Shown: in pieces, positions 1-9,674 of the stretch | Position numbering within the stretch: the stretch's first letter is position 1 | Layout: the number at the start of each line of letters is the position of its first letter | From: Eubacteriales bacterium | GTDB taxonomy: Bacteria > Bacillota > Clostridia > Peptostreptococcales > Anaerovoracaceae | NCBI GenBank assembly: GCA_029009055.1 | Contig: JAQXJR010000035.1 | Coordinates: 6,196 to 70,195, forward strand | DNA length: 64,000 bases | Direction: 5' to 3' | Position numbers and translations under genes: made by a program | Notes under the pieces: model-generated | What the model saw: the letters and a program-made list of their open reading frames with translations, nothing else | Told to the model about the DNA's origin: nothing | The model's database searches: none

Positions 1-224
1 CATCTGGTGACTTCATCCTTCTCGTAAGGAACTGTTGGGTTCTCTACGAGATCCTTGATAGTCAGATTGGCCAGGACGATCTTAGCGGCTACCCTTTCTG
101 TTTCCCCTGAAGCAGCTATGCCCTGCAATCTGTCTGCTGATTTAGGCTCGTTAGCCTTAGCCAGAACGTCTTTCACGTCCTTGAAGGAGTAAACTTCACC
201 ATTCAGCTTCGCCTTTAGTATCAT
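1..224 (-). CDS. eutB: Ethanolamine ammonia-lyase large subunit, 5' part only (runs off the window)
   Basis: Not in the ORF track. Manual translation from ATG at 224 gives MILKAKLNGEVYSFKDVKDVLAKANEPKSADRLQGIAASGETERVAAKIVLANLTIKDLVENPTVPYEKDEVTR, the characteristic EutB N-terminus. RBS GAAAGAGGTGG lies upstream. Confidence 0.93.
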   Translation of the reverse strand, partial: MILKAKLNGEVYSFKDVKDVLAKANEPKSADRLQGIAASGETERVAAKIVLANLTIKDLVENPTVPYEKDEVTR

Positions 225-239
225 GTTTCCACCTCTTTC

Positions 240-303
240 AAAAAAATTAGCTCATGAAAACCTGAGCATCTGACTTATCATCAGATCCCCTGTTTCATGA
301 GCT
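240..303 (-). terminator. Intrinsic terminator in the eutB leader
   Basis: Perfect 11-bp stem AGCTCATGAAA (249-259) / TTTCATGAGCT (293-303) with an inner ATCTGA/TCAGAT stem, followed on the minus strand by AATTTTTTT just before the eutB RBS. Confidence 0.75.
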
Positions 304-340
304 TCGTCACTTCGTGCCCCTAAGGGCTTAGAAACAATTA

Positions 341-934
341 TTATTTATCTCTGAGCAGGAATATGTCATAGGCTAGACCGGCTGCGTCGCCTGGATCTAG
401 ACCGTATTTCCCGCTTACAGACTTTAAGTATTCCGCGGCGTCATCTTCTGTCATTCTCTTCTCTTCCATGAGAAGGCTCACCGCGTATTTCATATTTCTC
501 GCGCCCGAGAATTTCTTCTCTGTCGCGTCTAACTCTTCGTCCAGCTCCTTAAGTCTTCTTTTCCTCGCGAAACTGAATTTAAGTTTAGCCAGGAGGTCTC
601 CCTTCCTGATCGGACTGGAAAGGTATATGTCAGCCGCGCCTTTGCTCTCTTCACGAGAAGCTGACCTGCCATCGTCCTTTATGACTCCGGTCGTCATATA
701 CCTCTCTTCTCTGGAAAAGTAATCCAGAAGCTTCACTCTGCGTTCGCTGTCGAGGACACCCCCCAGTATCACTCCATCCGGATGCTCATATTCTACCGCC
801 AATACCAGGTCCATAACGTCTTCGAAACAACTGGTCTCGATATCGCCGCTATCTAATGTATTTTCGACCTCTTCCCGGGCTTTATCATCGTTCACATATA
901 TGAATACCCGCTGCGGATCGTCATTTCTTCCCAT
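341..934 (-). CDS. Pseudo-receiver plus ANTAR-like domain protein
   Basis: Receiver-like fold with PDGVILGG where PDLVILD is expected (no phospho-Asp), then a coiled coil and a C-terminal ANTAR-like segment KYAVSLLMEEKRMTEDDAAEYLK. Confidence 0.7.
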   Translation of the reverse strand: MGRNDDPQRVFIYVNDDKAREEVENTLDSGDIETSCFEDVMDLVLAVEYEHPDGVILGGVLDSERRVKLLDYFSREERYMTTGVIKDDGRSASREESKGAADIYLSSPIRKGDLLAKLKFSFARKRRLKELDEELDATEKKFSGARNMKYAVSLLMEEKRMTEDDAAEYLKSVSGKYGLDPGDAAGLAYDIFLLRDK

Positions 935-956
935 ATTTCTCTCTATCCATTTCAGG

Positions 957-2300
957 CTATTTTATCAAATCGAATGTCTCAGTCGTCCCTTTCGGACCGG
1001 AGCTCACTTCGAACTCTCCTCCTAGCCTGTCCTTTATCATATCCCTGATTATGCCCAGACCGTATCCCTCGGCAGGACTATCAGCATCGAACCCCCGCCC
1101 GTCATCACTGTAAACTATGGTAGAAGATATCAGATCGTCTTTAAGTTCTATCTTTATTCTGCCTTCATTTCTTCCTTCGAAGGCATGCTTAAGAGAGTTG
1201 CAAATAAGTTCATATATGACTGTTAGTACTACGTTACATACGTCAGTCGTCACCATTATATCGTCACCGGAGATGTCTACGGTCACATTTTTACTGGTGA
1301 GATCCAGGGATATCCTACTTAAGGTATATTCCAAAGTGGATTTAAGTTCCAGCTCGCTGCCATTTCTAAGTTTCAGCTCGTTTATAGACTGGAGCATCCT
1401 GATCCTGTCTGCCATATCTCTATAAGCCTGGGAATCCTCACTCTCAGCCCTGTCCATAGCATAGTTGGATAAGAACATGAGCCAGTCCTTAGCCGAGTGC
1501 CTCTCTTCGTGGATAAGAAGGTCCAGATCCTTTATTTTCTGTTCCCTCTTCATCTTCTCCGTTATATCATCCATTATGACCGCGTATTTCACATTCTCCA
1601 TGCCGAGCCTTACGACTCTGCCTTCGAAAGAATAGCCGTTCATATTGAATGTTATCTTATCGTCCGGAACATCCGCTATGACGTTCTCTATGCCCATGCC
1701 GAGGACACGCCCTACATATCCCGCTACTTTCAATAAATTATCAGAATACTTATTGGAATAGCATATCTTATCCTGATTATTCACTAAGAGCAGGGCTTCG
1801 TCGAACCCATTAAGAAGCTTTTCTATATAAGCTGGGAGCGACACTTCTTTAACTCCCGCTCTGTCATTACCGAAATACTCAGCCTCGGTATCATTAATGA
1901 GGTGCTCATATATGAGAACAGCCACTACCTTATCCATAAACTTTATTGGAAATACCTGCTGCATCATGGCTTTGCCGGAGAAGACCTCGGATCCGGACAC
2001 ATTTCTCGTAGCTAGACCCGTATTGAAAGTTCTCTCTACAGCCGGCTCGTTCTCCGTGAACATGATGTCCCCGTAGAGCGGCTTATCGTATATGGTCCCC
2101 TTCGCTTCAGGATAGGCCTCGCCCACAATTATCATGGACTTCCCCGTAACGGTCATGCAGTCTATATACACGTTACACTGCTCGTTTTCGGCGAATTTCT
2201 GGAGATTCTTAAGGTAAGGATATATAGCCTCTATTTCCTCGTCGCTGAGCGCCGTGTATTTACGGCACAGCTCCTCACATTCACGGATCTCGTTAGCCAT
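957..2300 (-). CDS. eutW: EutW/PdtaS-type sensor histidine kinase (H_kinase_N GAF + PAS-like + HisKA_2 + HATPase)
   Basis: N-terminus LCRKYTALSDEEIE..NVYIDC is typical of EutW. N-box ELICNSLKHAF, G1 DDGRGF and G2 GYGLGII are present. ATG at 2300 has RBS AGAGGTGG and overlaps the eutV stop. Confidence 0.85.
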   Translation of the reverse strand: MANEIRECEELCRKYTALSDEEIEAIYPYLKNLQKFAENEQCNVYIDCMTVTGKSMIIVGEAYPEAKGTIYDKPLYGDIMFTENEPAVERTFNTGLATRNVSGSEVFSGKAMMQQVFPIKFMDKVVAVLIYEHLINDTEAEYFGNDRAGVKEVSLPAYIEKLLNGFDEALLLVNNQDKICYSNKYSDNLLKVAGYVGRVLGMGIENVIADVPDDKITFNMNGYSFEGRVVRLGMENVKYAVIMDDITEKMKREQKIKDLDLLIHEERHSAKDWLMFLSNYAMDRAESEDSQAYRDMADRIRMLQSINELKLRNGSELELKSTLEYTLSRISLDLTSKNVTVDISGDDIMVTTDVCNVVLTVIYELICNSLKHAFEGRNEGRIKIELKDDLISSTIVYSDDGRGFDADSPAEGYGLGIIRDMIKDRLGGEFEVSSGPKGTTETFDLIK

Positions 2301-2889
2301 TAGGTCCACCTCTGGAAATAATGATTTCCGCCACCTCAGCCATAGACATCTTATGCTTCCTGCTGATCTCTCTCATATTATCGTAAGCCTGGGTCTCGCT
2401 CACAGAATATCTGCTCATAAGCATAAGTTTAGCCTTCTCTATGATTTCGCGGTTCTCAACACGCTTATTAACGTTATCTATCTTCTTACGCATCTCGAAG
2501 AACTCGGCGCTGCTCTTCATGACGCTTTCTATAGTAGGCACCAGGAGATTCTTATCTAAAGGCTTAGTCATGTATCCTGAAGCCCCGGCTTCTATGACTC
2601 TATCCACCGTATCGCTGTCATCGAACGATGTGAGCACTATTACGCACTTAGCCAGGCAGCTGGAAACTATCTTCTCCGTCGCCGCTATCCCGTCCATGAG
2701 CGGCATCTTAATATCCACTATAGCTAAATCCGGCTTAAGCTCTGAACACAGCTTTACCATCTCCAGCCCGTTATGCGCTTCGCCCTCTACTTCATAGCCG
2801 GCCTCTATAAGGCAGTCCTTCAAGTCTCTTAGTAGGAAACGGTCATCATCAGCTATTACAGTTTTAAGTTTAGATTTAGAATTCTTCAT
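2293..2889 (-). CDS. eutV: Response regulator with ANTAR RNA-binding output domain
   Basis: Receiver motifs IADDD, DLAIVDIKMP and YMTKP, plus C-terminal ANTAR REIIEKAKLMLMSRYSVSETQAYDNMREIS. The start was moved to ATG 2889 because the ORF-track start lies inside the leader terminator. Confidence 0.88.
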   Translation of the reverse strand: MKNSKSKLKTVIADDDRFLLRDLKDCLIEAGYEVEGEAHNGLEMVKLCSELKPDLAIVDIKMPLMDGIAATEKIVSSCLAKCVIVLTSFDDSDTVDRVIEAGASGYMTKPLDKNLLVPTIESVMKSSAEFFEMRKKIDNVNKRVENREIIEKAKLMLMSRYSVSETQAYDNMREISRKHKMSMAEVAEIIISRGGPNG

Positions 2890-2906
2890 AAATATTACCG
2901 GATAAC

Positions 2907-2980
2907 AAAAAAGCACACTAAAACATTCCTGTTTAAGTGCACTACGTCGTACAAAAAATGTTCAATTCGGATGCGTCTCC
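2907..2980 (-). promoter_or_regulatory. Antitermination leader of eutV: two small hairpins plus an overlapping terminator
   Basis: Minus strand: GGA-GACGCA-TCC (2969-2980), a 16-nt linker, GTAC-GACGTA-GTGC (2939-2952) overlapping terminator GCACTTAAAC-AGGAAT-GTTTTAGTGTGC-TTTTTT (2907-2940). Confidence 0.7.
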
Positions 2981-2996
2981 TGATTTCGTCTGAAAT

Positions 2997-3025
2997 ATTT
3001 TATCATCTGATACGTTCGTTGTCAA
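2997..3025 (-). promoter_or_regulatory. Sigma-A promoter for the eutVW operon
   Basis: TTGACA-17 bp-TAAAAT with an extended -10 TG. Confidence 0.8.
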
Positions 3026-5453: not shown

Positions 5454-6002
5454 CTACTTAATATTAAGAGTATATGAAGCCTTAGCGTTCTTAACGCCGT
5501 AAAGATATGAAGCTATGTAATACTTCTGCCCCTTCTTCAGCTTAAGCTTAGCGTAACGGGTCTTCATCGGATCCGATGTCTTCTTCGGCTTCTTCGTTCC
5601 GTTAACGTAGTGGATCTTATAGTATTTCGGCGAGCAGACATGGAAACTCGTGCTCTTACCGAAGTTCGTCTTAGCCTTCAGCTTTATCATGTATCCGTAG
5701 CGGTTCTCTTTAATGGCAGCGAACCCGTTCACTCTCTTATTCTGTCCCTTATAATTTCTGACTTTCGAGAAGGTGATCGTGTATGTCCTAGTCTCTGGCG
5801 CCTTGAACTTAACGATGGCTCCCCTCTTCTTTATTTTCACTCGGGTAGTACCCTTCTTAACAGCAGGGGCTTTGCTCGGTTTAGTCGTTCCCGTCGTGAC
5901 CTTTCTGGTGGCAGCGCCCGCCGTAATAAAAGAAGCCAGGCAGAATACCAGGGCCAGGGCTGTGGCTGTTATGGCAGTCAAAAACTTAGAGCTTTTACTC
6001 AT
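5454..6002 (-). CDS. Secreted lysine-rich hypothetical protein
   Basis: Signal-peptide-like N-terminus (MSKSSK-hydrophobic stretch-AGA), highly basic beta-rich mature part, and RBS AAGGAGG. Confidence 0.65.
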   Translation of the reverse strand: MSKSSKFLTAITATALALVFCLASFITAGAATRKVTTGTTKPSKAPAVKKGTTRVKIKKRGAIVKFKAPETRTYTITFSKVRNYKGQNKRVNGFAAIKENRYGYMIKLKAKTNFGKSTSFHVCSPKYYKIHYVNGTKKPKKTSDPMKTRYAKLKLKKGQKYYIASYLYGVKNAKASYTLNIK

Positions 6003-6194: not shown

Positions 6195-7496
6195 CTATTT
6201 ATTAAGTTCTGCTACGGCCTTGAAGCCCTGCTCGAGGTCCCAGATGATATCGTCGATGTTCTCTGTTCCGATGGAAAGACGGATCGTATTCTCGGCGATT
6301 CCTGCTGCGGCGAGCTGCTCAGGTGTCATCTCAGCGTGTGTAGTGTCATATGGGTGGATGACGAGGGACTTAACGTCCGCTACGTTAGCCAGGTTGGAGA
6401 AGATCGTCAGCGCGTCTATGAACGCGTAAGCCTCTTCCTTACCTCCCTTAATGTTGAATGTGAATATGGAAGCTCCGCCGTTAGGGAAGTATCTCTCATA
6501 GAGAGCGTGGTCCGGATGGTCAGGAAGCGAAGGATGATTTACCTTCTCTACGAGAGGCTGCTTCTGCAGGAACTCTACAACTTTCTTAGTGTTCTCCACA
6601 TGTCTCTCGATTCTGAGTGACAGTGTCTCCAGGCCCTGAAGGAGGAACCAGGCAGCTATAGGTGAAATGGCCGCGCCAGTATCTCTGAGCAGGATGGCCC
6701 TAATGTATGTGACGAATGCCGCAGGGCCGGCTGCCTGTACGAAGGAAACTCCGTGGTAGCTTGGGTTAGGCTCTGTGAACTGAGGATATTTACCGGATGC
6801 TTCCCAGTCGAACTTTCCGCCATCTACGATGATGCCGCCGAGTGTAGTTCCGTGACCGCCGATGAATTTAGTAGCGGAATGGACTACGATATCAGCTCCG
6901 TGCTCCAGAGGTCTGATGAGGAAAGGCGTGCCGAATGTGTTATCGATCACTACAGGGATCTGATGAGCGTGTGCTATCTTAGCAACACCCTCGATATCAG
7001 GAATGTCTGAGTTAGGATTTCCCAGTGTCTCGATGAATACGGCCTTAGTCTTATCATTAATAGCGTTTTCTACCTCGTCCAGGTCGTGTACGTTTACGAA
7101 TGAAGTTTCTATGCCGTACTTAGGAAGTGTCTGGTCGAGGAGGTTGTATGATCCGCCGTAGATGCTGTTCTGAGCTACGATATTGTCACCCTGTCCCGCG
7201 AGAGCGAGGATGGAGTATGTGACCGCCGCTGCTCCTGCTGCTACGGCCAGTCCGCCTACTCCGCCTTCCAGAGCGGCTACTCTGTCTTCGAGAACGCCCT
7301 GTGTGGAGTTAGTGAGTCTGCCGTAAATGTTTCCGGCGTCTCTTAAGTTGAATCTGTCCGCGGCGTGCTGAGCGCTGTGGAAAACGTATGATGTCGTCTG
7401 GTAAATTGGAACAGCTCTGGAATCTGTAACCGGATCCGCCTGTTCCTGTCCTACATGCAGCTGCTTAGTCTCAAATTTAAATTCATGTTCACTCAT
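6195..7496 (-). CDS. metY: O-acetylhomoserine/O-acetylserine sulfhydrylase (PLP-dependent)
   Basis: FETKQLHVGQ, SRAVPIYQTTSY, IYGRLTN, HSATKFIGGHG (PLP lysine), NLANVADVKSLVIHP and IRLSIGTE. Confidence 0.93.
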   Translation of the reverse strand: MSEHEFKFETKQLHVGQEQADPVTDSRAVPIYQTTSYVFHSAQHAADRFNLRDAGNIYGRLTNSTQGVLEDRVAALEGGVGGLAVAAGAAAVTYSILALAGQGDNIVAQNSIYGGSYNLLDQTLPKYGIETSFVNVHDLDEVENAINDKTKAVFIETLGNPNSDIPDIEGVAKIAHAHQIPVVIDNTFGTPFLIRPLEHGADIVVHSATKFIGGHGTTLGGIIVDGGKFDWEASGKYPQFTEPNPSYHGVSFVQAAGPAAFVTYIRAILLRDTGAAISPIAAWFLLQGLETLSLRIERHVENTKKVVEFLQKQPLVEKVNHPSLPDHPDHALYERYFPNGGASIFTFNIKGGKEEAYAFIDALTIFSNLANVADVKSLVIHPYDTTHAEMTPEQLAAAGIAENTIRLSIGTENIDDIIWDLEQGFKAVAELNK

Positions 7497-7829: not shown

Positions 7830-8120
7830 TTACTCATAATGAGTCCACATACGAACGATTTTAATATAGCCATCATATTGTATATCGCCTTCAGTGAATG
7901 GCTCCTGATATATTCGATATACAAGGCGATGCTGGATATTGATTCGTCTGGAGTAGAGCCCACTGAGATTTCCAACTAAAGCTTCGTATCTAGGGGGATT
8001 TTCAAACGGATCCTCTCTGATAACATCGATCAAGCTTTTAGCTTTACCGTCAAGCCCAGAGGATTTTAGCTTCTTAATATCCTTTATCGCCTGCCGGTCA
8101 TATACTATCTTATAACTCAC
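7830..8120 (-). CDS. yoeB: Txe/YoeB family toxin (type II TA)
   Basis: DPFENPPRYEALVGNLSGLYSRRINIQHRLVY and C-terminal MWTHYE. The GTG start at 8120 overlaps the antitoxin TGA (GTGA). Confidence 0.9.
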   Translation of the reverse strand: MSYKIVYDRQAIKDIKKLKSSGLDGKAKSLIDVIREDPFENPPRYEALVGNLSGLYSRRINIQHRLVYRIYQEPFTEGDIQYDGYIKIVRMWTHYE

Positions 8121-8368
8121 CAATCCACCTCTTCTTCCGGTACGCATGATTCGATTGAAGAATCCCTACCTTCAATCAGCGATTCAGTCATTCCCGGAAT
8201 CGAATCCAGATATAGAGTTTCCTGTATAGCGCTCCAATCATCCTCACCAATGAGAACGCCATTCTTCCCCCTGGCGTTGGTGATCGTAATTGGTGTACTG
8301 CTTTCGTTCACATCGTTTAACAGCTGATATATATTTTCCCTGGCCTTCGTTACACTGATAGCAGCCAT
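8117..8368 (-). CDS. yefM: Phd/YefM family antitoxin
   Basis: ISVTKARENIYQLLNDV..PITIT..GKNGVLIGEDDWSAIQETLYL, directly upstream of the toxin. Confidence 0.9.
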   Translation of the reverse strand: MAAISVTKARENIYQLLNDVNESSTPITITNARGKNGVLIGEDDWSAIQETLYLDSIPGMTESLIEGRDSSIESCVPEEEVDW

Positions 8369-9581: not shown

Positions 9582-9674
9582 ATTCCTCAGCTCCCTGTAA
9601 ATTTTTATTCAATAGTTATACAACCTTACTAATTTTACCATTCCGCGGCAGATTTACAAGGTCGAGGGGCTAAC

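What the first reader, a model, noticed from the sequence alone, without database searches (positions are those of the whole stretch)
341..934. Third component in the eut two-component system: pseudo-receiver/ANTAR paralogue
Seen: between eutW and eutB lies a second receiver-ANTAR-like gene whose phospho-acceptor position reads G (PDGVILGG). Its ANTAR helices have lost several basic residues relative to the neighbouring EutV (KYAVSLLM vs EKAKLMLM). Known: characterised eut loci use a single EutV/EutW pair, and ANTAR domains act as dimers. Inference: this may be a phosphorylation-independent modulator that heterodimerises with EutV, acting as an inhibitor or specificity factor, which would be an undescribed layer of eut control.
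Basis: partly seen in the sequence, partly recalled or inferred. Interest (0 to 1): 0.68.

Follow-up and report, generated by a model that had tools for sequence, protein, structure and literature searches.

The report
Degenerate EutV paralogue in eut loci
Next to the two-protein switch that turns on ethanolamine-utilisation genes sits a conserved third gene: a copy of the RNA-binding regulator that has lost both its phosphorylation site and its RNA-contact residues. It most likely tunes the switch by pairing with the working regulator, which would be an undescribed control layer.

Summary
Window 341-934 (- strand) encodes a 197-aa protein ("X") between eutW and a terminator leader that precedes eutB.

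- **Homology:** Pfam barely detects X (ANTAR 19.9 bits, below threshold; no receiver hit). The family profile aligns end to end with EutV and Rv1626 (E 2e-17), and hhalign against EutVs gives 99.7%. An AlphaFold model (pLDDT 84) matches EutV best, then AmiR.
- **Degenerate sites:** Gly replaces the acceptor Asp. No family member keeps the receiver acidic pair.
- **RNA contacts:** The aromatic residue that stacks on the RNA guanine (EutV Y164, NasR W362) is absent in every member. K147 is always Tyr or Phe, and the ANTAR domain is acidic.
- **Not a one-off:** about 19 members under purifying selection (dN/dS about 0.15) form their own clade. Every member with recoverable flanks lies in a eut locus, in four gene orders. 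Where the eutV side was recovered, the partner EutV belongs to one lineage. An E. faecalis-type locus lacks X.
- **Mechanism:** X's linker helix is acidic and its partner EutV's is basic, which suits a mixed coiled-coil dimer. Whether X inhibits or sets specificity is unresolved.

No description was found in the searched literature.

The parts
341..934 (-). Gene X: a 197-aa degenerate REC-ANTAR paralogue of EutV. Pseudo-receiver residues 9-106, long linker helix 111-159, ANTAR-like three-helix bundle to 196. Gly58 sits in the acceptor column.
   Evidence: ORF. Family. Profile against PDB EutV/Rv1626 E 2e-17. hhalign 99.7%. AF2 pLDDT 84. Foldseek EutV TM 0.70. Residue table. dN/dS 0.165 against L001.
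957..2309 (-). eutW-type sensor histidine kinase (GAF_PdtaS + HATPase_c), 22 nt upstream of X.
   Evidence: Pfam. The same gene precedes X in L001, L005, L006/L007, L008, L009, L010, L011 and L012.
2293..2889 (-). eutV-type response regulator (REC + ANTAR) with an intact D-D-D-T-K quintet, and the RNA-contact residues R142, K147, K149, E160 and Y164 of the seven listed for E. faecalis EutV. The likely start is the ATG at 2889; the GTG at 2916 listed by the ORF finder lies inside the leader terminator.
   Evidence: Pfam 83.6 and 55.8 bits. Residue table. Sequence.
2907..3025 (-). Promoter-like site and eutV leader. -35 at 3025 and -10 ending at 2997. P1 GGA[GACGCA]UCC at 2980-2969. P2 UGUAC[GACGUA]GUGCA at 2953-2938, overlapping the terminator hairpin at 2942-2913. 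U tract at 2912-2907.
   Evidence: Promoter scan 11 of 12 matches with TG. Hexaloop scan. Fold. Sequence.
225..340 (-). X-eutB leader. P1 hairpin GCCC-UUAG-GGGC at 327-316, with a non-canonical loop. P2 AGU[GACGAA]GCU at 311-300. Intrinsic terminator at 303-249 with a U tract at 246-240. RBS at about 238-228.
   Evidence: Fold z = -5.18. Terminator scan. Hexaloop scan. Alignment with L001, L011 and L012 shows compensatory P1 changes and an invariant P2.
1..224 (-). 5' end of eutB (ethanolamine ammonia-lyase large subunit), cut by the window edge.
   Evidence: Pfam EutB 75.9 bits and NCBIfam PRK15067. Start codon read.

Best explanation
X is a degenerate paralogue of the antiterminator EutV. 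It is inherited together with one particular EutV-EutW lineage as a three-gene module.

**Shown:**
- X keeps the whole EutV architecture: receiver fold, long linker helix and ANTAR three-helix bundle.
- It has lost the receiver active site. In the window protein the acceptor Asp is Gly, the acidic pair is Val-Asn, Thr/Ser is Lys and Lys is Ser.
- It has lost the residues that EutV and NasR need to grip the RNA hexaloop: the stacking aromatic residue, R142, K147 and K149.
- It has its own conserved signature and is under purifying selection.

**Inferred:** X cannot be switched by EutW phosphorylation and cannot bind the hexaloop in the canonical way, so it acts through protein contacts.
- The most likely partner is EutV. 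X's acidic linker helix would pair with EutV's basic linker helix in a mixed coiled coil.
- Such a heterodimer has only one working ANTAR head. EutV antitermination is thought to need both heads of a dimer, handing over from hairpin P1 to P2. X would therefore damp or reshape the response.
- In the window X is encoded directly after eutVW, with no terminator predicted between them and behind an ANTAR-controlled leader. If it is co-transcribed with them, it would rise with induction and give negative feedback.
For: - **Homology and architecture:**
- **Receiver residues lost across 17 full-length members:** none has the acidic pair, 2 have Thr/Ser, 3 have Lys, and the acceptor is D in 11, G in 3 and E in 3. 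All 13 EutV/PdtaR comparators keep all five.
- **RNA-contact loss:** position 164 is never aromatic and position 147 is always Tyr/Phe in all members. The ANTAR net charge is -6 to 0, against -1 to +5 in EutVs.
- **Experimental importance of those residues:** PMC8934654 and PMC7496416.
- **Functional gene:** dN/dS 0.13-0.17 in three independent pairs.
- **Context:** every member with recoverable flanks lies in a eut locus, and a canonical eutV-eutW pair is present wherever that side of the contig was recovered. This holds in four gene orders.
- **Phylogeny:** the X clade has 200/200 bootstrap support. EutVs of X-bearing loci form their own 200/200 clade, and the two topologies are largely parallel.
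- **Negative control:** the E. faecalis-type locus L014 lacks X.
- **Linker helix (EutV 126-141) net charge:** -2 to -5 in 17 of 17 X, and 0 to +4 in 9 partner EutVs, with no overlap.
- **Autoregulated operon:** promoter, dual hexaloops and terminator lie upstream of eutV.
Against: - No interaction was modelled or measured.
- The charge contrast is not phylogenetically independent. One X-less EutV (L014) also has a basic helix, so basicity is not special to X partners.
- The EutV ANTAR-ANTAR contacts R142-E146 are not conserved in X.
- X keeps K/R at position 143 and mostly E at 160, and has a conserved aromatic residue at 147. A remodelled but conserved surface could still bind RNA.
- Eleven of 17 members keep the acceptor Asp and three also keep the Lys, so some members might still take phosphate.
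- X lies directly upstream of a leader RNA in most loci, which also fits a cis-acting RNA role.
Confidence: 0.45

Rival explanations
1. X is still an RNA-binding antiterminator subunit with altered specificity. As a homodimer or paired with EutV, its remodelled ANTAR surface (Tyr/Phe at 147, Tyr at 166, K/R at 143) would recognise a non-canonical loop and give leader-specific control. The tetraloop-like P1 of the eutB leader is a candidate target.
For: - The remodelled surface is conserved rather than decayed: Y/F147, Y166 and K/R143 are nearly invariant.
- X sits directly upstream of a structured leader in most loci.
- In the window, L001, L011 and L012 the eutB-leader P1 is a covarying hairpin whose loop is not ANNGNN, while P2 is canonical-like.
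- L008, L009 and L010 have a hairpin between X and eutB with GACG in its loop and no classical terminator.
Against: - The X ANTAR domain is net acidic.
- The aromatic residue required in both EutV and NasR is absent in all members.
- Other leaders next to X (L002, L005, L006) have two ordinary hexaloops. The same GANGNA loops occur in the X-less locus L014, so no RNA motif tracks with X.
Confidence: 0.22
2. X acts on the kinase EutW rather than on EutV. It would be a pseudo-substrate that docks on the kinase and limits phosphotransfer to, or dephosphorylation of, EutV. In Asp-bearing members it could be a phosphate sink.
For: - X directly follows eutW in most loci, 22 nt after it in the window.
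- The receiver fold is retained with good model confidence.
- The acceptor Asp is kept in 11 of 17 members, and Lys as well in the P0009/P0013/P0014 group.
Against: - The window protein and its closest relative have Gly at the acceptor, and three other members have Glu.
- No member has the Mg-binding acidic pair.
- This role does not explain why the whole linker helix and the ANTAR bundle are conserved under selection with their own signature.
- In L002-L004 X is separated from eutW by three genes.
Confidence: 0.15
3. X is a decaying duplicate of eutV with no function of its own.
For: - X has lost catalytic and RNA-contact residues.
- The Aminipila terrae copy is frameshifted.
- The family is rare: 12 hits at E <= 0.001 among 1.84 billion cluster representatives, two of them generic receivers.
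Against: - X has intact ORFs in about 10 lineages.
- dN/dS is 0.13-0.17.
- The family has its own invariant residues.
- It forms a deep monophyletic clade with only 18-39% identity among subgroups, which implies long retention.
Confidence: 0.03

Closest known systems
EutV (Enterococcus faecalis; PDB 6WSH, 6WW6), the ethanolamine-responsive REC-ANTAR antiterminator
   Same: - Same domain order and length, with an end-to-end profile alignment.
- Best structural match, TM about 0.70.
- Encoded in eut loci alongside eutW.
- Extended linker helix like the dimeric EutV form.
   Different: - Only 13-26% identity, in a separate clade with 200/200 support.
- The receiver quintet is degenerate.
- R142, K147, K149, Y164 and M172 are not conserved, and the ANTAR domain is acidic.
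- It occurs in addition to a canonical EutV, never instead of it.
AmiR (Pseudomonas aeruginosa; PDB 1QO0), a pseudo-receiver + coiled coil + ANTAR protein
   Same: - A phosphorylation-independent pseudo-receiver fused to an ANTAR domain through a long helix.
- Structural match with TM 0.67.
- Activity is governed by protein-protein contact rather than by phosphorylation (PMC12591593; general knowledge of AmiC-AmiR).
   Different: - AmiR is itself the RNA-binding antiterminator. X has lost the RNA-contact residues that EutV and NasR need.
- No AmiC-like ligand-binding partner is encoded near X.
- X co-occurs with a complete two-component pair.
Rv1626/PdtaR (Mycobacterium tuberculosis; PDB 1S8N)
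   Same: - REC-ANTAR architecture, and the best sequence-profile hit (E 2.2e-17).
- Its partner kinase has the PdtaS-type GAF domain, as eutW does here.
   Different: - PdtaR has an intact receiver and the RNA-contact residues.
- The X model is extended, not the compact PdtaR monomer (TM 0.51, rmsd 15 Å).
EutX/Rli55 small RNA (E. faecalis, Listeria), which sequesters active EutV
   Same: A functional analogy only: a eut-locus-encoded factor that would titrate active EutV and add a second input or a brake (PMC5821096).
   Different: - EutX is an RNA carrying an AdoCbl riboswitch and a decoy hexaloop site. X is a protein with no recognisable ligand domain.
- No cobalamin riboswitch was found in any X-bearing locus, nor in the X-less control L014. 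No substitution pattern could therefore be shown.
Dominant-negative dimerisation partners that lack the nucleic-acid-binding residues, such as Id proteins against bHLH factors (from general knowledge)
   Same: The proposed logic matches: X keeps the dimerisation element and has lost the nucleic-acid contacts, so a heterodimer would be inactive or altered.
   Different: These are unrelated folds in eukaryotes. The resemblance is a mechanistic analogy recalled from knowledge and was not tested here.

Membership tests
ANTAR domain (PF03861) | Sequence match to the Pfam model at the gathering score | tested here: not met
   19.9 bits against a cut-off of 27.3, E 6.3e-4, covering model positions 16-50 only. 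8 of 11 family members match at E < 0.1, best 5.8e-5.
ANTAR domain (PF03861) | Three-helix bundle after a long coiled-coil helix, homologous to solved ANTAR proteins | tested here: met
   The family profile aligns through the whole ANTAR domain of 1S8N and 6WSH. hhalign 99.7%. The AF2 model has helices at 111-159, 163-177 and 181-196. Foldseek finds EutV, Rv1626 and AmiR.
ANTAR domain (PF03861) | RNA-contact residues: basic at EutV 142/147/149 (NasR 340/345/347) and aromatic at 164 (NasR 362) | tested here: not met
   Window X has A, Y, V and A at these positions. Across the family, 164 is never aromatic and 147 is always Y or F. The requirement comes from PMC8934654 and PMC7496416.
ANTAR domain (PF03861) | Binds hexaloop RNA and prevents terminator formation | not testable with these tools
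   Needs EMSA/SPR and in-vitro transcription.
Response-regulator receiver (PF00072) | (beta-alpha)5 CheY-like fold | tested here: met
   The AF2 model has beta1-beta5 and alpha1-alpha3. The alpha4 region (87-102) is low-confidence coil. The profile matches many solved receiver domains. There is no Pfam hit for the window protein.
Response-regulator receiver (PF00072) | Active-site quintet: acidic pair, acceptor Asp, Thr/Ser, Lys | tested here: not met
   Window X has V14-N15, G58, K86 and S107. No family member has more than two of the five.
EutV orthologue (the eut antiterminator itself) | Groups with EutVs in a tree and is the only REC-ANTAR of the locus | tested here: not met
   X forms a separate clade with 200/200 support. 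An intact EutV is encoded alongside it in every locus where that side of the contig was recovered.
AmiR-like pseudo-receiver antiterminator | Pseudo-receiver + coiled coil + ANTAR | tested here: met
AmiR-like pseudo-receiver antiterminator | Retains RNA-binding residues and is controlled by a ligand-binding partner (AmiC-like) encoded alongside | tested here: not met
   RNA-contact residues are lost. No periplasmic-binding-protein-like gene appears in any X locus.
Proposed new family: eut-locus degenerate EutV paralogue ('X') | About 190-206 aa. Motifs ARK...L..L...E..F in the linker, Y/F at EutV-147, Y at EutV-166, non-aromatic at 164. Encoded in a eut locus with V1-type eutVW. | tested here: met
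   The window protein matches all of these. The nearest member is 92% identical, and the others 18-39%.

The most novel reading that the evidence does not exclude
X is a protein anti-antiterminator: a dead-head paralogue that forms acid-base coiled-coil heterodimers with phosphorylated EutV. It would give the EutVW circuit built-in negative feedback, or convert EutV into a single-headed form with different leader preferences. This would be the first protein-level antagonist or partner subunit described for an ANTAR regulator. It would also be a protein counterpart of the EutX/Rli55 RNA sponge in Clostridia, whose eut loci lack a recognisable AdoCbl riboswitch.
Probability: 0.35. Interest if true: 0.75.

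Novelty: new variant of a known kind. Interest (0 to 1): 0.6.

Why it matters
EutV/EutW is the model system for ANTAR antitermination, and eut regulation matters for how gut bacteria use host-derived ethanolamine. The published models have one regulator, one kinase and, in some species, an RNA sponge.

A conserved third protein, made from a disabled copy of the regulator, would add a protein-level layer: feedback, thresholding or leader selectivity. It would also offer a natural test of the proposal that antitermination needs both ANTAR heads of a dimer. Finally, it flags a class of 'response regulator' annotations in gut Clostridia that are unlikely to be phosphorylated or to bind RNA canonically.

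Tried and rejected
- **Word-indexed homologue search with X alone:** found only a 92% twin. The family emerged only from the exhaustive HMMER search.
- **Single-sequence AF2:** poor, pLDDT 61. It was replaced by an alignment-based model.
- **The search for related loci with the broad alignments:** X alone found nothing in the GTDB species genomes. A sub-alignment found L008/L009 and one metagenome contig, L010.
- **Idea that hexaloops starting with G (GANGNA) mark X-bearing loci:** rejected, because the X-less locus L014 has them too.
- **Idea that X replaces the AdoCbl-riboswitch sRNA EutX:** no support. No cobalamin riboswitch was found in any locus, with or without X.
- **Idea that X supplies the trans-acting K143 that its partner EutVs lack:** weak. 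L002 and L004 EutV keep K143, and the X-less L014 EutV lacks it.
- **Expression evidence:** one metatranscriptome contig covers only part of eutW, so it says nothing about X.
- **PADLOC:** no match. **Rfam on the region:** only a chance lncRNA hit.
- **My first eutB dN/dS:** computed out of frame and discarded.

Full report
**What is there**

On the - strand the window carries the following, in order:
- a sigma-70-like promoter (-35 at 3025, 11 of 12 matches with an extended -10);
- a leader with two hexaloop hairpins and a terminator;
- eutV (REC + ANTAR, 83.6 and 55.8 bits) and eutW (GAF_PdtaS + HATPase);
- 22 nt later, the 197-aa ORF at 934..341, called X here;
- a 116-nt leader whose terminator hairpin folds far better than shuffled sequence (-39.5 kcal/mol, z = -5.2);
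- the start of eutB (ATG at 224), which runs off the window.

No eutA lies between eutW and eutB. The organism is an uncultured livestock-gut bacterium: pig, sheep and bovine gut metagenomes hold the sequence. It has no close relative of X among the GTDB species genomes.

**Is X really receiver-ANTAR-like?**

Standard libraries barely see it. Pfam gives ANTAR at 19.9 bits (cut-off 27.3) and no receiver hit. NCBIfam gives only a weak PhoB receiver alignment. BLASTP against the neighbouring EutV gives 19% identity over 128 residues.

An exhaustive HMMER search of 1.84 billion cluster representatives found a small family: 12 hits, ten of them family members and two generic receivers. Three further lines establish homology:
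- A profile of the family aligns end to end with the solved REC-ANTAR proteins Rv1626 (E 2.2e-17) and E. faecalis EutV (E 2.9e-17).
- hhalign against an alignment of EutVs gives 99.7% probability, E 5e-26, over 186 columns at 13% identity.
- AlphaFold with the family alignment gives pLDDT 84.2. The model has a (beta-alpha) receiver fold, one long helix at 111-159 and two more helices. Its best PDB matches are EutV with RNA, EutV alone, Rv1626 and AmiR (TM 0.69-0.70 for EutV, 0.67 for AmiR).

**What has been lost**

I mapped the residues described for E. faecalis EutV in PMC8934654 onto a MAFFT alignment that is gapless across the ANTAR domain. Those residues are the acceptor D54, the RNA contacts R142, K143, K147, K149, E160, Y164 and M172, and the coiled-coil residues L128, I132, L135 and L139.

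| EutV position | Role | Window X |
|---|---|---|
| D9-D10 | acidic pair | V14-N15 |
| D54 | phospho-acceptor | G58 |
| T/S82 | receiver active site | K86 |
| K104 | receiver active site | S107 |
| R142 | RNA contact | A145 |
| K143 | RNA contact | R146 |
| K147 | RNA contact | Y150 |
| K149 | RNA contact | V152 |
| E160 | RNA contact | E163 |
| Y164 | stacks on the loop guanine | A167 |
| M172 | RNA contact | G175 |

The NasR study (PMC7496416) independently found the equivalents of 142, 147, 149 and 164 necessary for RNA binding, and an aromatic residue required at 164.

Across the 17 full-length family members:
- none has the acidic pair, 2 have Thr/Ser and 3 have Lys;
- the acceptor column is D in 11, G in 3 and E in 3.

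Across all 19 members, including two fragments, position 164 is never aromatic and position 147 is always Tyr or Phe.

The ANTAR segment has a net charge of -6 to 0, against -1 to +5 in EutVs. All 13 EutV/PdtaR comparators keep the full receiver quintet and the aromatic residue.

X has its own conserved residues: D102, P108, R124-K125, L131, E139, F142, M156, A166, Y169 and Y189.

**Is it a functional, conserved gene?**

Three independent close pairs give dN/dS of 0.165, 0.134 and 0.150.

All members for which flanking DNA could be recovered lie in eut loci. A canonical eutV-eutW pair is present wherever that side of the contig was recovered. There are four gene orders:

| Gene order | Loci |
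|---|---|
| eutV-eutW-X-eutB(-eutC) | window, L001, L008, L009, L010, L011, L012; L001 and L010 are short contigs holding only the end of eutW |
| eutV-eutW-X-(400-460 nt)-eutG-eutS-eutP | L005, L006/L007 |
| eutV-eutW-eutQ-eutA-BMC-X-eutB-eutC | L002/L003 (Candidatus Pelethocola excrementipullorum, Lachnospiraceae) and L004 |
| X(frameshifted)-eutV-eutW-eutB-eutC | L013 (Aminipila terrae, complete genome) |

In a neighbour-joining analysis of 30 sequences, X forms a clade with 200/200 support. The EutVs of X-bearing loci form their own 200/200 clade, which excludes E. faecalis EutV, Rv1626, the second EutV of L005 and the EutV of L014. The X and partner-EutV topologies are largely parallel. 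L014, an E. faecalis-type locus (eutG-S-P-V-W-A-B-C), has no X.

X therefore behaves as the third gene of a specific eutV-eutW lineage, not as an accident of this window.

**How it most likely works**

The receiver pocket is gone and the hexaloop-gripping residues are gone. The linker helix and the bundle are nevertheless conserved under selection, so a protein-contact role is the simplest reading.

One new piece of circumstantial evidence points to EutV as the partner. Over the dimerisation-helix segment (EutV 126-141), X carries a net charge of -2 to -5 in 17 of 17 members. The partner EutVs carry 0 to +4, with no overlap (Mann-Whitney p = 3e-5; the sequences are not phylogenetically independent). 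This pattern favours mixed over like-with-like coiled coils.

The hydrophobic positions equivalent to L128, I132 and L139 are kept (L131, L135 and F142 in X). The L135 equivalent is mostly polar.

A heterodimer would have one working ANTAR head. In the published model both heads of a dimer are used in turn on P1 and P2. X would therefore be expected to damp or alter antitermination.

In the window X is encoded directly after eutVW, behind an ANTAR-type leader. If co-transcribed, its level would follow induction, giving feedback. None of this was tested. I put it at about 0.45.

**Rivals**

- **Altered-specificity RNA binder or subunit (about 0.22).** The changed surface is conserved rather than random: Y/F147, Y166 and K/R143. 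In the window, L001, L011 and L012 the eutB-leader P1 is a hairpin with compensatory stem changes (GCCC/GGGC against GUCCGC/GCGGAC) whose loop is not the ANNGNN type, while P2 (AGU[GACGRA]GCU) and the terminator arm are invariant. Against this: the domain is acidic, the required aromatic residue is missing, and no RNA motif tracks with X. Other X-adjacent leaders have two ordinary hexaloops, and GANGNA loops also occur in the X-less L014.
- **Action on EutW, as a pseudo-substrate or sink (about 0.15).** It fits the adjacency to eutW and the Asp kept in 11 of 17 members. It does not explain the conserved ANTAR half, nor the members with Gly or Glu at the acceptor.
- **A decaying duplicate (about 0.03).** It is contradicted by the selection and conservation data, despite the frameshift in Aminipila terrae.

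**Comparison with what is known**

X works most like a dominant-negative or accessory dimer partner. It is not a member of the functional classes 'EutV orthologue' or 'canonical ANTAR RNA binder', because the defining residues were tested and not met.

Structurally it is a REC-ANTAR protein. Its nearest precedent for a pseudo-receiver is AmiR, which is itself the RNA-binding antiterminator and is controlled by AmiC.

The searched literature describes only EutV, EutW and the EutX/Rli55 RNA sponge, and mentions no second REC-ANTAR protein in eut loci. This covered ANTAR and eut reviews up to 2025. The one named database entry for the family reads simply 'response regulator'.

The 2018 review notes that Clostridium eut loci have EutV but no obvious AdoCbl riboswitch. 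I found no cobalamin riboswitch in any locus here, with or without X. A substitution of X for EutX can therefore be neither supported nor excluded.

**Verdict**

I rate it a new variant of a known kind, with interest 0.6.

Noticed in passing
L008 7754-12948 (MAG Eubacterium sp. RGIG5802), L009, and L011/L012: These are short eut loci of only eutV-eutW-X-eutB-eutC, with no microcompartment shell genes, eutA, eutT or eutH nearby. L008 is flanked by barnase/barstar and nusG. The reviews read here place EutVW in long, microcompartment-type Firmicute loci, so a minimal EutVW-regulated lyase operon is unusual.
   Followed up: partly
L005 816-2799 and 5835-7795: One contig carries two complete eutV-eutW pairs. 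One is a V1-type pair followed by X. The other is an E. faecalis-type pair in the usual eutP-V-W-A-B-C position. The two EutVs fall in different clades.
   Followed up: partly
L013 6397-6965 (Aminipila terrae CP047591.1): This X-family gene, closest to P0010, lies upstream of eutV and is split by a frameshift into a 73-aa receiver piece and an 80-aa ANTAR-like piece. It could be a pseudogene or a sequencing error. This is the only cultured, complete genome found that carries the family.
   Followed up: partly
window 316-327 (- strand); L011 about 9640-9665; L012 about 7255-7280: The first hairpin of the X-eutB leader shows compensatory stem changes between lineages. Its loop is tetraloop-like (UUAG, AUAG, UUAA or AGAG), not the A1/G4 hexaloop expected of an ANTAR P1. 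A tandem ACGAAG...ACGAAG follows it.
   Followed up: partly
L008 10613-10686; L009 about 5560-5633; L010 721-808: In these loci the X-eutB spacer holds a strong hairpin with GACG in its loop (GACGGUA in L008, GACGGAA in L009; a larger loop containing GACGUA in L010), and no classical U-tract terminator follows. It could be a single ANTAR-type site acting on translation or stability.
   Followed up: no
window 1-2900 against L001: Nucleotide identity to the 92%-twin contig is mosaic: 73-94% across eutW (dS 0.98), 90-97% across X (dS 0.23), 98% in the leader and 100% in eutB. This suggests recombination between strains or a chimeric metagenome assembly.
   Followed up: partly
L011 6259-6840 and L012 3869-4441: A conserved, very hydrophobic protein of 190-193 aa with no Pfam hit sits just upstream of eutV in both loci. 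It is possibly a small membrane transporter for ethanolamine.
   Followed up: no
window 7830-8147 (- strand): This 105-aa ORF has a sequence (…RINIQHRLVYRI…) that resembles YoeB/Txe-type toxins of toxin-antitoxin pairs, judged by reading only.
   Followed up: no
window 1075-1295: A gut metatranscriptome run (X23) holds a 221-nt contig identical to part of eutW. This is the only hint of expression found, and nothing covers X.
   Followed up: partly
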